DNA of 64,000 nt from a phage: the NCBI GenBank assembly GCA_021081985.1, contig GCA_021081985.1_3639.1; one strand, written 5' to 3'. Below the pieces are notes generated by a model that worked only from the letters and a program-made list of their open reading frames with translations, was not told where the DNA came from and ran no database searches. Below, piece by piece: positions 19,060 through 55,862 of the stretch; position 1 is the stretch's first letter, and every line of letters starts with the position of its first letter. The position numbers and the translations under genes were made by a program.

Positions 19060-19392
19060 TTAGTATTGGTGACGATAAAACTTTATACCTAAAGTGTTTT
19101 CGAAATATTCTCTCGCCAACATAAACTTGTTCACGGCAGATGGGTTAGAGCTATGTACGTGAATCTCTTTAAGATTCGTAAACTTACCATCATGAAGCTC
19201 ACGTTCAATATAGATGAAAGCATCGTAACCTTCCTCATCACCACCCAAATCATTATCAAAATGGATGGAATCAATGTCGCTATCACTCATAAATTTTAGT
19301 AATGAGTAGAAGCTAGAGAGATTCTTACACCATAAGGCATTAGGGTATCCATAATCTACTGGATTTCGCAGATCATCCAACCACAGTTTCAA
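19060..19392 (-). CDS. conserved hypothetical protein (MKLWLDDLRNP...FDNDLGG motif)
   Basis: 110-aa ORF between the kinase-like and ligase-like genes; family not assigned. Confidence 0.3.
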   Translation of the reverse strand: MKLWLDDLRNPVDYGYPNALWCKNLSSFYSLLKFMSDSDIDSIHFDNDLGGDEEGYDAFIYIERELHDGKFTNLKEIHVHSSNPSAVNKFMLAREYFENTLGIKFYRHQY

Positions 19393-20321
19393 ATTGTACC
19401 TCCGAAAAAATCCTCAATAATTTCACGACGGAATTGTTCATGCAAACATTCCCAATGTTCTTTAGAATAGTTATCACGCAAATAGTTTAAAAGGTTATAA
19501 TACTCTTCGTCAACTTTCTTCTTAGCTTCTTCTGGGTTTCCCCAAATCATATCCCACTTGTTCTTACCGCCACGCATCAAAAATTTCTTCGCCAAATAGT
19601 GTGGTGATTTTATCTTCAAGAGAAGATCTTGCTGTCCTGTAGCAGCACGTACAACAAACCCTTCATGTTTGCATTCTTTAGACATTTTCAGGATGTCTGA
19701 AAAGTGCATATTTATGTAAGTCTCTGGTCGTTTAAAACCGAACTCTTTTGCGATAAGATCCAGAGCTTTTTCACTAAGCATAGAAGTTAATTTGTCTTTA
19801 TGAAATCGAACACCAATCAAATACACACCTGCCTTTTCTGGTACAATGTGTGGGTCTGAAGGAGCGCAAATCTCAAAGATAAATGTTGTCTTTGGTTCTT
19901 CCACACATGATAACAACATTGGCAAATTAGTACATTCTTCCATGATCATACCTTTTGCAAGTTTTGCAAAATCGGAATCTAGAGTTCCTGTTGTTGAAAC
20001 AATTAGCTCACCATTGTATGAGCTTACTGCTGCCATGAAGCCATTAACTTTACGTGCTGCATTCACAACCATATCTTTTGGAAGATCAGTACCGTTCTCT
20101 AAATGATTGAAAATCTTGGTAAAAGGCCACACAACGATGTTGTCATCACTGTCCACAACCATACCACGGCAATCAAGTAAGCGACTGTCTTGATCCCACA
20201 AGTTTTCCCAAAAAACTTTGTTACTGTATTTCAAAACAGACAAACCTTTAAACTCACCACTGGTATAAGTCTTCTTTTTGACAAGGCCTTTTGATACTAA
20301 ATCTTCAACATTGAATTTCAT
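19389..20321 (-). CDS. RNA ligase-like nucleotidyltransferase (putative)
   Basis: KVNGFM motif I-like lysine nucleotidyltransferase signature; 310 aa. Confidence 0.45.
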   Translation of the reverse strand: MKFNVEDLVSKGLVKKKTYTSGEFKGLSVLKYSNKVFWENLWDQDSRLLDCRGMVVDSDDNIVVWPFTKIFNHLENGTDLPKDMVVNAARKVNGFMAAVSSYNGELIVSTTGTLDSDFAKLAKGMIMEECTNLPMLLSCVEEPKTTFIFEICAPSDPHIVPEKAGVYLIGVRFHKDKLTSMLSEKALDLIAKEFGFKRPETYINMHFSDILKMSKECKHEGFVVRAATGQQDLLLKIKSPHYLAKKFLMRGGKNKWDMIWGNPEEAKKKVDEEYYNLLNYLRDNYSKEHWECLHEQFRREIIEDFFGGTI

Positions 20322-50695: not shown

Positions 50696-52108
50696 ATGGC
50701 TTATAATGACAAGGTGGTTGATGTAACAGTCACACTTGGTACTCAACCAATCGACACAAAAGGGTTTGAAACCCCACTGTTCCTTGCGATCCATAATGTC
50801 TTCCCAGAAAGAGTTCGTGCTTATACCGAACTTAGTCAATTAGTTGATGATGGATTTGCTGTTGGAACACCTGCATATAATTATGCATCTAAGGCATTTT
50901 CTGGAACATTCCGTCCACAATATCTGATGATTGGTCGCCAAGGCTTCACCAATACGGTTGTGGATTTTACAGACCAGACAAACACAGACCCAGAAACACC
51001 TGTAGCTCTAAACTTTGTGACAGGGGCTTATCAAAAGAGCATACTTGTCAATGTAAATGCATCTTCAGAGCCTTCTACAATTGCTACATCTCTGGCTGAC
51101 GCTATTAATGCGGATACAACGCTGAAGACTGTACTTACGGCAACAGCAAGCGAGGCTAAAGTAACAATTGCCCCAAAAGATAGTGGCAAGTTTAGTGTTG
51201 GTAAAGACAGCGGAAATATGGTCATCACCAATACCTCCGATGAGACAGTTTCTTCTGTTCTTCCGCAGGTTATGACCGCAAATGAGAACTGGTATTTTGT
51301 CAGCACTGAGTCACACACAAAAACATCTATCTTAAGTGCCGCCGCATTCGCCGCTGCAAATTACAAGATGCATGTCTACTCAACTGCGGATGAAAAATCT
51401 AAAACTGCTGATAGTGATTCCATCGCAGATGAACTGAAAGCTCTGCAATACGACACCTCTATTGGTATGTACGATCCGCTGGCAGACAGTGCCTATCCAG
51501 AAGGAGGAATTATCGGGGCGATGGCCTCAAATGATCCTTCCTATGGGGATTCTATCCACCTGAAGACTATGGACGGGGTTGTTGCTCCAACCTTGAGTGC
51601 AACGGAACGTATGACTATCTGGGGTAAGAATCTGAACTTCTACCGCATGATTAATGGTGTAGGATCCTTCTATGAAGGCAAATGCGCTTCCGGCAATTAT
51701 GTAGATGTTGTGAGATTTGGTCACTGGCTTAAGTTCCGCACCGAAGAAAGTGTTTTCGGATATATGTCCCGCAGATCCAACATGGGCCTGTCTGTTAAAA
51801 TGAGTGATGATGACCTCCCTAACCTGAAGTCTGTCATCATGAATAACCCTATCAACGTAGGTATTTCTAACGGAGCTATTTTAACAGGTTATGATGAGGT
51901 TAACAAGGTCTTCTTCGACCCTGTAATCACAATCCCTCTGCGTGGAAGCATACCTACTAACGATCTGGCAGCACGTACACTTAACAACGTGAAAGTGGAA
52001 CTGGTATACAACACACCACTACATTTTGTCAAGATCCGTATGACTGTCATGCTGGACAAAACAGGTTCAAATTCTGGTAACGCACAGACAGTAACAGCAG
52101 GAGTGTAA
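50696..52108 (+). CDS. tail sheath protein (putative)
   Basis: 470 aa immediately upstream of a 157-aa tube-sized gene, chaperone pair and tape measure gene; canonical contractile-tail order. Confidence 0.5.
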   Translation: MAYNDKVVDVTVTLGTQPIDTKGFETPLFLAIHNVFPERVRAYTELSQLVDDGFAVGTPAYNYASKAFSGTFRPQYLMIGRQGFTNTVVDFTDQTNTDPETPVALNFVTGAYQKSILVNVNASSEPSTIATSLADAINADTTLKTVLTATASEAKVTIAPKDSGKFSVGKDSGNMVITNTSDETVSSVLPQVMTANENWYFVSTESHTKTSILSAAAFAAANYKMHVYSTADEKSKTADSDSIADELKALQYDTSIGMYDPLADSAYPEGGIIGAMASNDPSYGDSIHLKTMDGVVAPTLSATERMTIWGKNLNFYRMINGVGSFYEGKCASGNYVDVVRFGHWLKFRTEESVFGYMSRRSNMGLSVKMSDDDLPNLKSVIMNNPINVGISNGAILTGYDEVNKVFFDPVITIPLRGSIPTNDLAARTLNNVKVELVYNTPLHFVKIRMTVMLDKTGSNSGNAQTVTAGV

Positions 52109-52111
52109 TAA

Positions 52112-52585
52112 ATGAATACAGCTATTCTAACGCCGTATGCATATGACCCTAAAAAAGTAAAACTGTATCTGATGACTCAAAGAGTAACAGGATTCGCAGC
52201 GGACACGAAAATTGTTGTGTCCCGTAATGAAGACAATATCATCCCCCACATGGGGGTTGATGGTGAGCTATCTGCTGCACTGTCCCGTAACCAATCTGGT
52301 GTTATGACGGTTTCTCTTCAGAATACAGCATCATGGAATGGTAATTTAGCAAACTGGCAAAAACAAGCATCCGTAACTGGCCTTATTTTCTTCCCTGTTC
52401 TTCTGGAAGGTTCTCAAGGTATGGGCTTGAGTACAATTGGATGGATTCAGAAACAGCCTGACCTTACTTACGGAACGGAAGTTGGTCAGATGGACTGGGA
52501 AATTGGTATTCTGGATGCTTGGTTGAGTCCTGATACTCTGTCCTCTGTTGGCTTCGGCCTCGCTGGACTTTCCGGTATTATTTAA
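52112..52585 (+). CDS. tail tube protein (putative)
   Basis: 157 aa between sheath-like and chaperone genes. Confidence 0.5.
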   Translation: MNTAILTPYAYDPKKVKLYLMTQRVTGFAADTKIVVSRNEDNIIPHMGVDGELSAALSRNQSGVMTVSLQNTASWNGNLANWQKQASVTGLIFFPVLLEGSQGMGLSTIGWIQKQPDLTYGTEVGQMDWEIGILDAWLSPDTLSSVGFGLAGLSGII

Positions 52586-52660
52586 TAATTTCGTGTGCCA
52601 CATGGATGTGGCCTTTATACACGTAAGGATAGTTCAACTTCTAAAGACGCAGGAGCGTGC

Positions 52661-53128
52661 ATGAAAATCAGACAAACAACTGAAATTGACCTAGCGGGTC
52701 ACAACTTTGTTATTACACATTGGTCCCCAACAAAAGCATTTAAAAATATTCCTAAGATAGGACGTTATATTGCTGTTCCAATGGCATCCATTTCTGGAGC
52801 ACTTATGTCTGGTGGGCAGAATCTTTCTGATGCTATTCCAACAGCAGTATTATACCTATTTGACCAGATGGAGCAAGATAATATTGAAGAACTTTTTGCC
52901 TTAATTCTGGACGATGTATCTGTTGATGGTATGGCAGGTAAGGTAGACATTGATGATATTTTCCAAGGGAAGATGATGGACCTTATCAAACTCGTGGCGA
53001 AAGTGCTGGAGGTTAACTACGGCTGTTTTTTCACGAAAGACGGTTTCGCAAGCCTTCAGGATCTTCTGGGACGCCTGGGTCAGACCCATCAACTGAACAC
53101 GATGGATCAGGCAGAGGAAGCGGAGTAA
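52661..53128 (+). CDS. tail assembly chaperone (start at internal ATG with AGGAG RBS)
   Basis: Position upstream of tape measure gene; contains a slippery heptamer near its 3' end. Confidence 0.5.
   Translation: MKIRQTTEIDLAGHNFVITHWSPTKAFKNIPKIGRYIAVPMASISGALMSGGQNLSDAIPTAVLYLFDQMEQDNIEELFALILDDVSVDGMAGKVDIDDIFQGKMMDLIKLVAKVLEVNYGCFFTKDGFASLQDLLGRLGQTHQLNTMDQAEEAE
53026..53032 (+). other. candidate programmed -1 ribosomal frameshift site (T TTT TTC)
   Basis: Heptamer in zero frame tgT TTT TTC acg; the -1 frame is open from 53017 to 53406, giving a chaperone fusion product. Confidence 0.5.
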
Positions 53129-53163
53129 CACCGTCTAATATTTCGAAAGTTGTCCTGAGAGCT

Positions 53164-53406
53164 ATGAACTATGCAAGAAAAAATAGCTCATTGACTTGGT
53201 TCGATTATTTGTGGTGTCGTGCTCTGAAGAGTTTTAAAGGTGAGTCTTATTCCTCACTTGAGTCTGCTGACATGGCCTACCTGCTTAAACTGAACGAATA
53301 TCTTGATATCGAAGAGTTTATCCAAGACGTACAGGAGAGAGAGGAACAAAGTGCAGCCAATGCTGCCGCCGCTGCAAATAGGTCGCGCCGAGGTAGAAGA
53401 GGTTAA
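53164..53406 (+). CDS. tail assembly chaperone -1 frame extension (track ORF)
   Basis: Open in -1 frame relative to the upstream chaperone ORF; ends RSRRGRRG. Confidence 0.4.
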   Translation: MNYARKNSSLTWFDYLWCRALKSFKGESYSSLESADMAYLLKLNEYLDIEEFIQDVQEREEQSAANAAAAANRSRRGRRG

Positions 53407-53410
53407 TCTC

Positions 53411-53446
53411 AAGCCAGGTTCCTTCTCGGAACCTGGCTTTTTTATT
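53411..53446 (+). terminator. strong stem-loop, terminator-like, before tape measure gene
   Basis: AGCCAGGTTCCttctcGGAACCTGGCT followed by TTTTTTATT. Confidence 0.55.
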
Positions 53447-53457
53447 GAGGAAAATCT

Positions 53458-55830
53458 ATGGCGAATATCATAGTAACTAAAACCGTAAATGCTGTCGAGT
53501 GGTCTGTAGATCGCACCAGTTACGGTCGTGCAATGAAAGCTATAAAATCCCTGAAGAAGGAATGGGAAAAGACTAACAGAGCTTTCACTTCTAATAAAAG
53601 TAATCCGGCAGCAATTTATAAACGTTCTGCGCAAGAGGCTCGTCTTGTAGCTAAAAGATTACACCAAACTGAACGTGCAGAGCAAGCAAAATCTACGGCA
53701 CATGCTATTGCAATGGCAAAAAAGGAAGCTCGTGCTCGTGAACAAATAGCCAAAGTTGAGAGCGCGAGAAGAAAGCAAGCAGTAGCCAGACTAACAAACA
53801 GAAGAACACCTGAAGAACAAAAAGAATATAATGCATTAAAATCAAAGTTGAAGCAGATGGAAAAAACAGGTTCTGGATATGTAACAAATCCAGAAATATC
53901 TGCTGCCCGTCAAGCAAGATTGCAGCAAGAACTTGCAGCAAGAAAGTCTTCAGGGTCTGCCTCTGGTATTGTTGGGGATCCTAATAGTCGTCACGATCCA
54001 AGTCTTGTGGCTGCCCAGAACTCTGCTATGGAACGCTATCATAAATCTATTCCGAAAGAAAAAACAGCGGATGAGATTAAGGCAGAAAAAGATGCTAATA
54101 AGAAGAAAGAAAGAGAAGCGTTAAGAGCAGAAAGGATAAAGGCTGCAAAACAATCAACAATTGCTAATGCTGCTGTAAGACTTCGTGCTAAGTATGGTGA
54201 TGATTTCAGGTCTAAAATTAAAGGTTATGATGATCTGGAAAAGAGATTTATGCAAAGCCAGACTATGAGAGCTTCTAATTTCCGTGCTGAATTGGCAGCA
54301 ATGGAAACAGGACTCCGCAAAGCTAAGGCAAATACACTATCTCTTGATCAAGGATTGAAAAACCTTCGTAGCACATTAATTAGTGTTTCTGCTGCATACG
54401 GAGCTTTTAATGCTGCCGCAAGTGTTGTGAAAACAGGACAATTCTTTCAAGGCATGGAAGCTACCATGTTAATGGTTTCTGATGACTCAGAAGAAGCAGC
54501 GAAAAGAATACAGTTTGTTCGGGAGCAATCTTACAGATTGGGTTTGAATTTAAAAACCGCCGCCCAAGGTTATACCCAAATGTCCATATCTGCCAAAGGT
54601 GTTTTGAGCAAGGCGCAAAATGACGAACTGTTCAAAGGTTTCTCAGAATATGCTACTGCACTTCAGGTTGATCCTGTAAAATACCAGCGTGGTATTACCG
54701 CTATCCAACAAATGATGGGTAAAGGTCAGATCATGGCTGAAGAATTAAAACAGCAGTTAGCCGAGGGTATTCCTGGTTCTCTTGATGTATTCCTTAAAGC
54801 CACACAAGAAGCATTCAATGATTCATCTATAGACATTGCAAAATTAATGGATATGATGAAGAATGGAGAGCTAAAGGCTTCAAAAATTCTTCCTTTGGTC
54901 GCTAAGTATTATGCCGAGGCTGCAAGAAAAGGTGGTGCACTTACCAAGGCACAACAAAGCAACCGTGTTGCTATGCAGCGTTTACAACAAACATGGATGA
55001 ACTTTCAAAATAAGATATTTGAAAGTGGATTTGGGGATGAATTAACTAAAACGTTTAATGATTTGTCTCACATGTTGGATGCTAAAGGACCGTTAGCTGA
55101 GAAAGTTGGACAATTTACTTCTGGATTCATAAAGGGCTTTATGGATATCGCACATACGATATCTAATGTCTGCATTTTTATAAATGCAGAATTAAACATG
55201 TATATCCCACAATGGATAAAGAAAAGTGAGACATTCCAAAAAGCGACTAACTGGGTAGGTTGGGGTCTCGGTGCTCTATTCTTCGCGACTTCCTTGGTTA
55301 GAGTATTCAGAATCTTGGCTAAAATTGCTGGAATAACGGGAACATTGAAAGTATTGAAGGATATCTTTGGTGATGGTGACGATAAACCTAAAAATCCAAG
55401 AAAACCAAGAATACCAAAATTCCTGAGACGCGGTAAAGGTTGGCTCGGTTTAATAGCAACAGCCGCTATAGCAGCAACAGGTTTGGATGTTGATGACTCC
55501 GAAGAACCAAGTTCTGACCAAATACCTACAAAATCAATGCAGGAAGATTTTGTTAAGAACAGGAGTATTTCAGGCGGCCTTTCTCAATGGTGGGATAGTT
55601 TATGGGCTGGGCATATGCAGGATAAAGCCAACTATCTTCAATCCCATAATCTAATGCCTGGCGGATCTGCTACAGGTCAAACTGTAGCTCCTATGGTTAT
55701 TCCTACCGAGCCTGTCAGTGGTGAAATAACAATTAAAATAGATGCTGGAGAATTACGGAATATGATTGACCAGCAAATAGAGACAGCTAATATGGATAAC
55801 ATTAATCTTATTCTTGCTGTCCCTCAATAA
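53458..55830 (+). CDS. tail tape measure protein
   Basis: 790 aa, extended Ala/Lys/Glu-rich helical N-half and hydrophobic segment, located after the chaperone pair. Confidence 0.7.
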   Translation: MANIIVTKTVNAVEWSVDRTSYGRAMKAIKSLKKEWEKTNRAFTSNKSNPAAIYKRSAQEARLVAKRLHQTERAEQAKSTAHAIAMAKKEARAREQIAKVESARRKQAVARLTNRRTPEEQKEYNALKSKLKQMEKTGSGYVTNPEISAARQARLQQELAARKSSGSASGIVGDPNSRHDPSLVAAQNSAMERYHKSIPKEKTADEIKAEKDANKKKEREALRAERIKAAKQSTIANAAVRLRAKYGDDFRSKIKGYDDLEKRFMQSQTMRASNFRAELAAMETGLRKAKANTLSLDQGLKNLRSTLISVSAAYGAFNAAASVVKTGQFFQGMEATMLMVSDDSEEAAKRIQFVREQSYRLGLNLKTAAQGYTQMSISAKGVLSKAQNDELFKGFSEYATALQVDPVKYQRGITAIQQMMGKGQIMAEELKQQLAEGIPGSLDVFLKATQEAFNDSSIDIAKLMDMMKNGELKASKILPLVAKYYAEAARKGGALTKAQQSNRVAMQRLQQTWMNFQNKIFESGFGDELTKTFNDLSHMLDAKGPLAEKVGQFTSGFIKGFMDIAHTISNVCIFINAELNMYIPQWIKKSETFQKATNWVGWGLGALFFATSLVRVFRILAKIAGITGTLKVLKDIFGDGDDKPKNPRKPRIPKFLRRGKGWLGLIATAAIAATGLDVDDSEEPSSDQIPTKSMQEDFVKNRSISGGLSQWWDSLWAGHMQDKANYLQSHNLMPGGSATGQTVAPMVIPTEPVSGEITIKIDAGELRNMIDQQIETANMDNINLILAVPQ

Positions 55831-55834
55831 TTTG

Positions 55835-55862
55835 AAGGGGCTTTTGCCCCTTTTTGTTGTTT
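55835..55862 (+). terminator. intrinsic terminator after tape measure gene
   Basis: AGGGGCttttGCCCCT followed by TTTTGTTGTTTT. Confidence 0.55.

What the first reader, a model, noticed from the sequence alone, without database searches (positions are those of the whole stretch)
53026..53032. Programmed -1 frameshift signal in the tail assembly chaperone gene
The heptamer T TTT TTC sits in the zero frame near the 3' end of the chaperone ORF, and the -1 frame is open from 53017 to 53406. This gives the G/GT-type chaperone pair conserved upstream of tape measure genes. A strong hairpin (53411..53446) follows the extended ORF.
Basis: partly seen in the sequence, partly recalled or inferred. Interest (0 to 1): 0.45.

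Follow-up and report, generated by a model that had tools for sequence, protein, structure and literature searches.

The report
Tail chaperone -1 frameshift site
This is the usual "slippery" site at which a small share of ribosomes shift back one base to make a longer tail-assembly chaperone; it is real and strongly conserved, an expected feature of long-tailed phages that is simply not annotated in this phage group.

Summary
The window is about 98% identical to Escherichia phage Av-05 (Vequintavirinae). T TTT TTC (53026-53032) lies in X XXY YYZ phase in the tail assembly chaperone gene (52661-53128, Pfam Phage_TAC_15), between the tube and tape measure genes. The -1 frame is open from 53017 to 53406.

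- All 77 distinct related loci, plus one metagenome contig, carry an in-phase slippery heptamer in the 0/-1 overlap.
- 73 of the 77 have T TTT TTC. Divergent lineages have G GGA AAG, G GGT TTT or C CCT TTT instead.
- The conserved C-terminal domain always lies in the -1 frame. It begins upstream of the window's first possible start codon (ATG 53164). 19 of 28 lineages have no start codon at all before it.
- Synonymous variation collapses at the site.
- No conserved 3' RNA structure exists. A GGAGGT lies 12 nt upstream and may stimulate slippage.
- The hairpin at 53411-53439 is a lineage-conserved terminator-like element, not a general part of the signal.

The predicted products are a 155-aa short form and a 248-aa fusion. 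The same frameshift has already been proposed for homologous chaperones of Felix O1-like and Pakpunavirus phages. This is a new member of a known kind, and an annotation gap.

The parts
52661..53128 (+). Zero-frame tail assembly chaperone ORF (short product, 155 aa; G-like / TAC-N)
   Evidence: Pfam PF21822 Phage_TAC_15, E = 1.7e-30, residues 13-129. phrog_3840 'tail assembly chaperone', 7.6e-71. RefSeq Av-05 names it tail assembly chaperone. In the AlphaFold2 model (pLDDT 69) the confident core ends near residue 124.
53008..53013 (+). Shine-Dalgarno-like GGAGGT, 12 nt 5' of the heptamer (possible stimulator; inferred)
   Evidence: An SD-like element 10-14 nt upstream occurs in 15 of the 23 listed T TTT TTC lineages. 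It is absent in four others (Certrevirus CR3 and KaOmega, phiA047, two Felix O1-like relatives). The reported stimulatory spacing for -1 shifts is 9-14 nt (PMC5009743).
53026..53032 (+). Slippery heptamer T TTT TTC in X XXY YYZ phase (codons Cys122 3rd base, Phe123, Phe124)
   Evidence: Identical and in phase in 73 of 77 distinct related loci. TGT/TCT/AGT-TTT-TTC is invariant at synonymous sites in 14 of 14 Vequintavirinae lineages.
53032..53160 (+). -1 frame linker (HERRFRKPSGSSGTPGSDPSTEHDGSGRGSGVTPSNISKVVLR): a basic patch, then a Gly/Ser/Pro/Asp-rich segment of variable length. It contains no ATG, GTG or TTG.
   Evidence: The segment is free of stops in all relatives although its length varies.
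53161..53406 (+). -1 frame conserved C-terminal (T-like / TAC-C) domain, with stop TAA 53404-53406. The fusion product is 248 aa (124 + 124).
   Evidence: phrog_10409, E = 1.2e-46, covering residues 42-123 of the -1 product. The near-invariant Ala (74 of 75 sequences) is codon 53161-53163, just upstream of the first ATG at 53164. The domain is conserved across all lineages.
53411..53445 (+). Intrinsic-terminator-like hairpin plus T run, directly after the -1 frame stop and before the tape measure gene
   Evidence: Folding energy -23.3 kcal/mol, z = -5.75. Listed by the terminator scan. Kept with compensatory stem changes in Vequintavirinae and Aeromonas Plateaulakevirus. Absent in phi92-like, Felix O1-like and Barbavirus-like loci.
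52112..52585 (+). Tail tube gene (context)
   Evidence: Pfam KPP10_Orf10 and phrog_280. The homologue is annotated tail tube protein in the EduardKellenberger record.
53458..55830 (+). Tape measure protein gene (context)
   Evidence: Pfam TMP_3, 7.8e-18; phrog_5255, E = 0.

Best explanation
Programmed -1 ribosomal frameshifting of the lambda G/GT type.

Most ribosomes translate 52661-53128 and release a 155-aa chaperone. A minority slip while tRNA-Phe occupies the P site on UUU (53027-29) and the A site on UUC (53030-32). Both tRNAs re-pair one base back, on UUU UUU (53026-31). Decoding then resumes at CAC (53032) in the -1 frame and ends at TAA 53404-53406.

The result is a 248-aa fusion with three parts: the chaperone core (residues 1-124), a flexible Gly/Ser/Pro-rich linker, and a conserved helical C-terminal domain.

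By analogy with lambda gpG/gpGT (inferred, not shown here), both forms coat the tape measure protein through the shared N-domain. The rare C-domain then recruits the tube protein to start tail polymerisation. Neither form stays in the virion.

The heptamer alone is probably sufficient. The GGAGGT 12 nt upstream may raise efficiency by pairing with 16S rRNA. No 3' RNA structure is involved.
For: **Shown from the sequence and from comparison**
- Phase, open frame and gene context are as described.
- 77 of 77 distinct related loci have an in-phase X XXY YYZ heptamer in the 0/-1 overlap. They span Vequintavirinae, Stephanstirmvirinae (phi92, phAPEC8), a Pseudomonas phage, Aeromonas Plateaulakevirus, Barbavirus-like phages, Felixounavirus and uncultured contigs. 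73 of the 77 have T TTT TTC.
- Where T TTT TTC is missing, another canonical heptamer stands nearby: G GGA AAG (L015, L086), G GGT TTT (L087, L088), C CCT TTT (L091).
- The base before TTT TTC is always T, although the codon encodes Cys, Ser or Pro. TTT-TTC is never TTC-TTT, TTC-TTC or TTT-TTT. Third-position entropy falls from about 1.1-1.4 bits to 0.4-0.6 at the site.
- The conserved C-domain is in the -1 frame in every locus. Eight different spacings between the zero-frame stop and the domain anchor all equal 2 mod 3. The near-invariant Ala lies upstream of the window's first start codon. 19 of 28 lineages have no ATG, GTG or TTG between the heptamer and that residue.
- The confidently modelled chaperone core ends at about residue 124, which is where the shift occurs.

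**From the literature**
- UUY A-site codons and all-pyrimidine heptamers are among the more shift-prone in E. coli (PMC4066793).
- The G/GT mechanism and its conservation are described in PMC5009743.
- The same shift has been proposed for homologous chaperones of Felix O1-like phages (PMC4319497, PMC4591319) and of Pakpunavirus and Andersonviridae (PMC12846349).
Against: - There is no direct evidence that the fusion protein exists in this phage or in any Vequintavirinae member.
- Efficiency is unknown.
- None of the 13 GenBank/RefSeq records inspected annotates a joined CDS.
- No fusion-length protein appeared among 76 database relatives.
- The window does have an ATG at 53164 after a weak GAGAG, so an independent 80-aa product cannot be excluded as an additional species.
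- The zero-frame amino acids N-Y-G-x-F-F are themselves conserved, so part of the nucleotide conservation reflects protein constraint.
- The loci are phylogenetically related, so the counts are not independent trials.
Confidence: 0.88

Rival explanations
1. Transcriptional slippage. RNA polymerase stutters on the T6 run and inserts one extra U in a fraction of transcripts. Ordinary translation of those mRNAs then gives the same 248-aa fusion.
For: - The site is a homopolymer (T6).
- Inserting one U would give exactly the same ...CFFHER... product, so protein data cannot tell the two mechanisms apart.
- A paper on T4-like phage chaperones (Vladimirov et al. [quoted passage not shown]
Against: - Lineages that lack T6 carry G GGA AAG, G GGT TTT or C CCT TTT, always in X XXY YYZ phase. 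These are classic ribosomal shift sites with runs of only 3-5 identical bases.
- Productive bacterial transcriptional slippage is described for runs of about 9 A or T (PMC5009743).
- Position 7 is always C, never T, although T would lengthen the run. That C is also the first base of the -1 codon, so this point is only partly independent.
Confidence: 0.05
2. Two separate genes. The downstream ORF is translated on its own, by initiation or re-initiation at ATG 53164 or TTG 53191 as in the RefSeq annotation. The heptamer is then an incidental consequence of a conserved Phe-Phe.
For: - All inspected database records annotate two separate CDS.
- The window has ATG 53164 with a weak GAGAG 2 nt upstream.
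- Phe-Phe is conserved at protein level.
Against: - The annotated starts differ between records, in codon and in position.
- 19 of 28 lineages have no start codon before the conserved part of the domain. In the window, the conserved residues (ISKVVLRA) lie upstream of the ATG.
- The PHROG profile of the small ORF extends upstream of the window's ATG.
- The 44 codons before that ATG are stop-free although the -1 frame stop density is 11% per codon.
- The frame relation is -1 in 77 of 77 loci despite varying spacing.
- Synonymous choices T-TTT-TTC are fixed.
Confidence: 0.04
3. Chance co-occurrence of a slippery-looking heptamer and an open -1 frame, with no function.
For: In-phase heptamers are common: 13 of 62 genes have one in their last 36 codons. 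A second T TTT TTC on the minus strand (19404-19410) looks incidental.
Against: Conservation persists across lineages with only about 28-45% chaperone identity. Alternative heptamers substitute for the original one. Synonymous variation is suppressed at the site.
Confidence: 0.01

Closest known systems
Phage lambda gpG / gpGT tail assembly chaperones (Levin et al. 1993; Xu, Hendrix & Duda 2004, 2013, 2014; as summarised in PMC5009743)
   Same: - Two overlapping ORFs lie between the major tail (tube) gene and the tape measure gene.
- An in-phase slippery heptamer sits near the end of the first ORF.
- The second ORF is in the -1 frame without its own start.
- The arrangement yields a short abundant product and a long rare one.
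- No 3' stimulatory structure is needed.
   Different: - The heptamer is T TTT TTC, not G GGA AAG. Barbavirus-like relatives of this family do use G GGA AAG.
- There is no detectable sequence similarity to gpG or gpT.
- The host virion is a contractile-tailed myovirus with a sheath.
- The shift occurs 31 codons before the zero-frame stop.
- The products and their ratio have not been measured here.
Phage P2 E / E+E' (myovirus tail chaperone frameshift; Christie et al. 2002, recalled from my own knowledge; efficiency note in PMC5009743)
   Same: Contractile-tailed phage, gene order sheath - tube - chaperone pair - tape measure, and a T-rich heptamer (T TTT TTG in P2, from memory).
   Different: A different protein family (no Pfam overlap tested positive here), a different last base of the heptamer, and a large virulent phage rather than a temperate one.
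Felix O1-like phages Moogle and Michonne (PMC4319497, PMC4591319), and Pakpunavirus Adele / Andersonviridae TAC-N / TAC-NC with the 'GTTTTT' motif (PMC12846349)
   Same: The chaperone is homologous. The Felixounavirus phage finno is hit by tblastn (about 30% identity) and has T TTT TTC at the same aligned position and the same downstream -1 domain. Those papers propose the same -1 shift on comparative grounds.
   Different: Those reports cover Ounavirinae/Andersonviridae and Vandenendeviridae. I found no report or annotation of the shift for Vequintavirinae or Av-05. Vequintavirinae add a long acidic zero-frame tail, a longer linker and a terminator right after the -1 ORF.
E. coli dnaX -1 frameshift cassette
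   Same: An internal Shine-Dalgarno-like sequence lies within the 9-14 nt window upstream of the heptamer (window: GGAGGT, 12 nt).
   Different: There is no 3' stem-loop. The heptamer is different. The SD-like element is not conserved in all lineages and coincides with a conserved Leu-Glu-Val, so its role is unproven. Efficiency is expected to be low rather than about 50%.

Membership tests
G/GT-type tail assembly chaperone frameshift (Xu, Hendrix & Duda 2004) | Pair of overlapping ORFs located between the major tail/tube gene and the tape measure gene | tested here: met
   The order is tube 52112-52585, ORF 52661-53128, -1 ORF to 53406, then tape measure 53458-55830. The same order holds in 13 annotated relatives.
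G/GT-type tail assembly chaperone frameshift (Xu, Hendrix & Duda 2004) | Upstream ORF is a tail assembly chaperone | tested here: met
G/GT-type tail assembly chaperone frameshift (Xu, Hendrix & Duda 2004) | Canonical slippery sequence in zero-frame phase within the overlap of the two frames | tested here: met
   T TTT TTC lies at 53026-53032, and the overlap is 53017-53128. Present in 77 of 77 related loci, with four different canonical heptamers across the family.
G/GT-type tail assembly chaperone frameshift (Xu, Hendrix & Duda 2004) | Downstream reading frame lacks its own conserved translation start and is conserved as protein from the shift site onwards | tested here: met
   There is no ATG, GTG or TTG between 53032 and 53163. 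The near-invariant Ala lies upstream of the first ATG. 19 of 28 lineages have no start codon there (alignment).
G/GT-type tail assembly chaperone frameshift (Xu, Hendrix & Duda 2004) | A fusion protein is actually made, at a low fixed ratio to the short form, and is required for tail assembly | not testable with these tools
   This needs protein analysis and genetics. No fusion-length protein appeared among 76 database relatives, but automated gene calling would not produce one anyway.
G/GT-type tail assembly chaperone frameshift (Xu, Hendrix & Duda 2004) | Neither product is part of the mature virion | not tested
   The text of the rV5 virion proteomics paper lists tube and sheath proteins and does not contain the words 'chaperone' or 'tape measure' (PMC3606486). 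The supplementary table was not inspected.
dnaX-like stimulated -1 frameshift cassette | Internal Shine-Dalgarno-like sequence 9-14 nt 5' of the shift site | tested here: met
   GGAGGT at 53008-53013, with 12 nt spacing. The spacing rule comes from PMC5009743. The element is not conserved in all lineages.
dnaX-like stimulated -1 frameshift cassette | Stable stem-loop or pseudoknot a few nt 3' of the shift site | tested here: not met
   The 80 nt downstream fold no better than shuffles (z = +0.48). RNAalifold on 13 lineages predicts no pairs. There is no Rfam match above threshold.
Programmed transcriptional slippage | Long homopolymeric A or T run (about 9 in described bacterial cases), conserved as a run regardless of reading phase | tested here: not met
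   The run is T6. Relatives substitute GGGAAAG, GGGTTTT or CCCTTTT in strict X XXY YYZ phase. The run-length figure comes from PMC5009743.

The most novel reading that the evidence does not exclude
The frameshift rate in this chaperone family is tuned lineage by lineage through an upstream rRNA-pairing element. GGAGGT or GAGGTGA lies 10-14 nt before the heptamer in E. coli, Salmonella, Klebsiella and Pseudomonas phages. It is absent in Certrevirus CR3 and KaOmega, Aeromonas phiA047 and two Felix O1-like relatives. There is no 3' structure at all. On this reading, the ratio of short to long chaperone, and through it tail assembly, would be set by a 'half dnaX-type' signal. A more remote variant is that the conserved terminator just after the -1 ORF acts at long range on shifting, as reported for T7 gene 10.
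Probability: 0.3. Interest if true: 0.4.

Novelty: new member of a known kind. Interest (0 to 1): 0.28.

Why it matters
- **Annotation.** In every Vequintavirinae and related record I inspected, the second half of the chaperone is annotated as a free-standing 'hypothetical protein' with arbitrary start codons (ATG, TTG, GTG). The correct product is probably a 248-aa fusion. Correcting this removes a spurious gene family (phrog_10409) and completes the tail-assembly gene set of a phage group widely used against E. coli O157 and Salmonella.
- **Biology.** The family-wide comparison gives a clean natural experiment. One homologous site is served by four different slippery heptamers, which argues for ribosomal rather than polymerase slippage. 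The result extends the G/GT rule to another large group of contractile-tailed phages. It does not change the current view of how tails are built.

Tried and rejected
- **3' stimulatory RNA structure.** Folding 53033-53112 gives z = +0.48, and RNAalifold on 13 lineages finds no pairs. Rejected.
- **Rfam scan of 52500-53600.** The only match is a sub-threshold chance hit to the L10 leader.
- **Hairpin 53411-53439 as a frameshift element.** It lies about 380 nt downstream and looks like an intrinsic terminator. It is missing in phi92-like, Felix O1-like and Barbavirus-like loci that keep the frameshift. It is not a general component.
- **Broad 13-sequence chaperone alignment as a locus query.** It failed because it has no conserved stretch. 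I used a Vequintavirinae subset and single proteins instead.
- **AlphaFold2 on the fusion without an alignment.** pLDDT was 39, so the model is uninformative and was not used.
- **Literature search for a reported frameshift in rV5, PVP-SE1, Vequintavirinae or Av-05.** None found. Vladimirov et al. 2022 on T4-like chaperones could not be read.
- **Second in-phase T TTT TTC on the minus strand (19404-19410).** The downstream ORF has its own GGAGG plus a TTG start overlapping the stop, so this looks like ordinary translational coupling.

Full report
**Identity of the window and gene context**

The region 52100-53500 is 98.2-98.4% identical to Escherichia phage Av-05 and four near-identical phages (Vequintavirinae, Avunavirus). 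It is about 82% identical to PVP-SE1-like Salmonella and Cronobacter phages.

The local gene order, from ORF listing, Pfam, PHROGs and the RefSeq annotation of Av-05, is:

| Coordinates | Gene | Evidence |
|---|---|---|
| 50696-52108 | tail sheath | phrog_205 |
| 52112-52585 | tail tube | KPP10_Orf10 / phrog_280 |
| 52661-53128 | tail assembly chaperone | Pfam Phage_TAC_15, E = 1.7e-30; phrog_3840 |
| 53164-53406 | small ORF, 'hypothetical' | phrog_10409 |
| 53458-55830 | tape measure protein | TMP_3; phrog_5255 |

This is the canonical position of the chaperone pair of long-tailed phages.

**The observation**

- The chaperone ORF starts at ATG 52661 (GGAG 5 nt upstream) and ends at TAA 53126-53128.
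- In that frame the codons are TGT (53024-26), TTT (53027-29) and TTC (53030-32). TTTTTTC at 53026-53032 is therefore T TTT TTC in X XXY YYZ phase, at residues Cys122-Phe123-Phe124 of 155.
- The -1 frame has a TAA at 53014-53016 and is then open to TAA 53404-53406.
- The hairpin at 53411-53439 has a 12-bp stem and a 5-nt loop, followed by T6. Folding energy is -23.3 kcal/mol and z = -5.75.

**Is it more than chance?**

- A heptamer alone is not rare. In-phase X XXY YYZ motifs occur at 0.47% of codons in 62 putative genes of the window. 13 of the 62 genes have one in their last 36 codons.
- The -1 frame of those genes carries stops at 11.1% of codons. From that figure I calculate p of about 0.006 for the 44 stop-free -1 codons between the heptamer and the first ATG/GTG/TTG (ATG 53164). 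For all 124 codons the figure is about 5e-7.
- Only three heptamers in the window are followed by 60 or more open -1 codons. The other two lie at gene ends and run into the next gene. I inspected one of them and found that the downstream ORF has its own start.

**Comparative evidence**

I collected the homologous locus from three kinds of source:
- 13 annotated phage genomes;
- IMG/VR contigs;
- one ENA metagenome contig.

This gave 77 distinct sequences plus L091. They cover Vequintavirinae (Avunavirus, Seunavirus, Vequintavirus, Certrevirus and Klebsiella phages), Stephanstirmvirinae (phi92, phAPEC8), a Pseudomonas phage, Aeromonas Plateaulakevirus, Rheinheimera Barbavirus and relatives, and Felixounavirus. 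Chaperone identity to the window goes down to 28-45%.

*The heptamer is conserved, or replaced by an equivalent one.*
- Every locus has an in-phase X XXY YYZ heptamer inside the 0/-1 overlap.
- 73 of the 77 have T TTT TTC at the same aligned position, in the motif N-Y/F-G-x-F-F.
- The four Barbavirus-like loci have G GGA AAG (L015, L086) or G GGT TTT (L087, L088).
- L091 has C CCT TTT.
- Replacement of one canonical shift heptamer by others, always in phase, is hard to explain unless tandem tRNA slippage is the selected function.

*The -1 frame always leads into a conserved domain.*
- In every complete locus the -1 frame stays open from the heptamer for 70-97 codons beyond the zero-frame stop. 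Two contigs (L039, L078) end before the stop. The +1 frame closes within 1-20 codons.
- The -1 product consists of three parts: a short basic patch (RRFRKPSG and similar), a Gly/Ser/Pro/Asp-rich linker of variable length, and a conserved C-terminal domain of about 80 residues (...KNSSLTWFDYLWCRALK...YLLKLNEYLDIEEF...).
- Eight different spacings between the zero-frame stop and a near-invariant Ala of that domain all equal 2 mod 3.

*The downstream domain has no conserved start of its own.*
- That Ala (74 of 75 sequences) is window codon 53161-53163, immediately upstream of the first start codon, ATG 53164.
- 19 of 28 representative lineages have no ATG, GTG or TTG anywhere between the heptamer and that residue.
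- Database annotations start the small ORF at different codons and positions. The Av-05 RefSeq start maps to TTG 53191 in the window.
- The PHROG profile of the small ORF extends upstream of the window's ATG.

*Synonymous variation collapses at the site.*
- In a codon alignment of 14 Vequintavirinae lineages, third-position entropy at conserved residues is about 1.1-1.4 bits along most of the gene. It falls to 0.4-0.6 bits around the site.
- AAC, TTT, TTC and the downstream GGT are invariant.
- The codon before TTT always ends in T, although it encodes Cys or Ser here, and Pro or Ser in other subfamilies.
- Phe codon usage in the structural genes is 63 TTT to 50 TTC, so fixation of TTT-TTC is not a codon-bias effect.

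**Stimulatory elements**

- No 3' structure is present. The 80 nt after the heptamer fold no better than shuffles (z = +0.48). RNAalifold on 13 lineages predicts no pairs. Rfam gives nothing above threshold.
- Upstream, GGAGGT (53008-53013) ends 12 nt before the heptamer.
- An SD-like element (GGAGGT, GAGGTGA, GGAG and similar) 10-14 nt upstream is present in 15 of the 23 listed T TTT TTC lineages. It is absent in Certrevirus CR3 and KaOmega, Aeromonas phiA047 and two Felix O1-like relatives.
- The published stimulatory spacing for -1 shifts is 9-14 nt (PMC5009743).
- The element coincides with a conserved Leu-Glu-Val. Nine of the 12 lineages with Glu at this position use GAG, against a GAA:GAG usage of 102:52 in the structural genes. 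I treat it as a plausible, unproven enhancer.
- According to Sharma et al. 2014 (PMC4066793), UUN A-site codons, homogeneous ZZN codons and all-pyrimidine heptamers are among the more shift-prone in E. coli. That description fits U UUU UUC.

**The hairpin**

It sits 4 nt after the -1 frame stop and 12 nt before the tape measure start. It looks like an intrinsic terminator.

An equivalent hairpin plus T run follows the -1 stop in all Vequintavirinae lineages and in Aeromonas Plateaulakevirus, with different stem sequences that keep pairing. It is missing in phi92-like, Felix O1-like and Barbavirus-like loci.

It is therefore a conserved transcriptional feature of some lineages, probably lowering expression of tape measure and baseplate genes relative to sheath, tube and chaperone. 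That role is inferred. It is not part of the shared frameshift signal. Its position after the -1 stop rather than the zero-frame stop is consistent with the -1 ORF belonging to the same expression unit.

**Structure**

An AlphaFold2 model of the 155-aa product was built with 31 aligned relatives (pLDDT 69, pTM 0.63).
- It shows a beta-hairpin plus helical core.
- Confidence is 80-90 up to about residue 120 and drops to 55 and then 39 afterwards.
- The shift therefore occurs at the end of the folded core. This is what is expected if a common N-domain is joined to alternative tails.

The single-sequence model of the fusion was unusable. No solved structure is related by sequence.

**Mechanism**

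*Shown by sequence and comparison:* the signal, the frames, the conservation, and the absence of an independent start.

*Inferred from the lambda paradigm (PMC5009743):*
1. Most ribosomes make the 155-aa form.
2. A few percent slip -1 on U UUU UUC, with tRNA-Phe in both the P and A sites.
3. These ribosomes make the 248-aa fusion.
4. Both forms bind the tape measure protein through the N-domain.
5. The C-domain recruits the tube protein.
6. Both forms leave before the virion is complete.

**Rivals**

- *Transcriptional slippage on T6* would give the same protein. The substitute heptamers have runs of only 3-5 bases and strict phasing. Described bacterial cases use runs of about 9. Confidence about 0.05.
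- *Independent translation of the small ORF* is contradicted by the missing start codons and by conserved residues upstream of the ATG. It could still exist as a minor extra product in this phage. Confidence about 0.04.
- *Chance* is excluded by the conservation.

**What is known**

- The G/GT frameshift is a textbook feature of long-tailed phages (PMC5009743).
- For homologous chaperones it has been stated for the Felix O1-like phages Moogle and Michonne (PMC4319497, PMC4591319).
- It has also been argued from comparative data, with an invariant 'GTTTTT' motif, for Pakpunavirus/Vandenendeviridae and Andersonviridae (PMC12846349).
- For Vequintavirinae I found no paper and no joined CDS in 13 records.
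- A search of 5.8 billion proteins with the fusion returned only short forms, nearly all about 146-162 aa, each covering at most about two thirds of the query.

**Verdict**

This is a real, conserved, ordinary recoding site. It is a new, unannotated member of a known kind.

Noticed in passing
window 53411-53445 (+); equivalents in L007, L009, L010, L011, L012, L018, L019 and others: A terminator-like hairpin directly after the -1 ORF stop and before the tape measure gene. It is kept with compensatory stem changes across Vequintavirinae and Aeromonas Plateaulakevirus, and is absent in phi92-like, Felix O1-like and Barbavirus-like relatives. It may set the transcript ratio between sheath/tube/chaperone genes and tape measure/baseplate genes.
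   Followed up: partly
window 19404-19410 (minus strand), genes 19389-20321 and 19060-19392: A second in-phase T TTT TTC lies 5 codons before the stop of a 310-aa gene (phrog_562, RNA ligase / tail fiber attachment catalyst). The -1 frame runs on into the next ORF (phrog_1479). That ORF has its own GGAGG plus 6 nt plus a TTG start overlapping the stop (TTGA), so this looks like ordinary translational coupling rather than recoding.
   Followed up: partly
L015, L086 (G GGA AAG); L087, L088 (G GGT TTT); L091 886-892 (C CCT TTT): Divergent members of the same chaperone family use different canonical slippery heptamers at or near the homologous position. This is a natural substitution series that could be used to compare shift efficiencies.
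   Followed up: yes
window 55834-55853 (+): A second terminator-like hairpin (GAAGGGGC-TTTT-GCCCCTTT plus a T run) lies immediately after the tape measure gene stop.
   Followed up: no
window 52590-52612 (+): A short hairpin (GCCACAT-GG-ATGTGGC) lies in the 75-nt gap between the tube gene and the chaperone gene. It has no clear T run, so the terminator scan did not list it.
   Followed up: no
phage records MG065682.1 and MG065676.1: Several records named 'Campylobacter phage' (A112b, A116, host C. jejuni) carry a chaperone locus whose identity to the window (52%) is the same as that of E. coli Vequintavirus phages such as Murica. This suggests mislabelled or contaminating rV5-like coliphage genomes.
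   Followed up: no
L015 3120-3758; L019 3319-4476: In Rheinheimera Barba19A and Aeromonas 4L372XY, a homing (HNH) endonuclease gene is inserted between the chaperone pair and the tape measure gene. The chaperone-tape measure adjacency is therefore not absolute.
   Followed up: no
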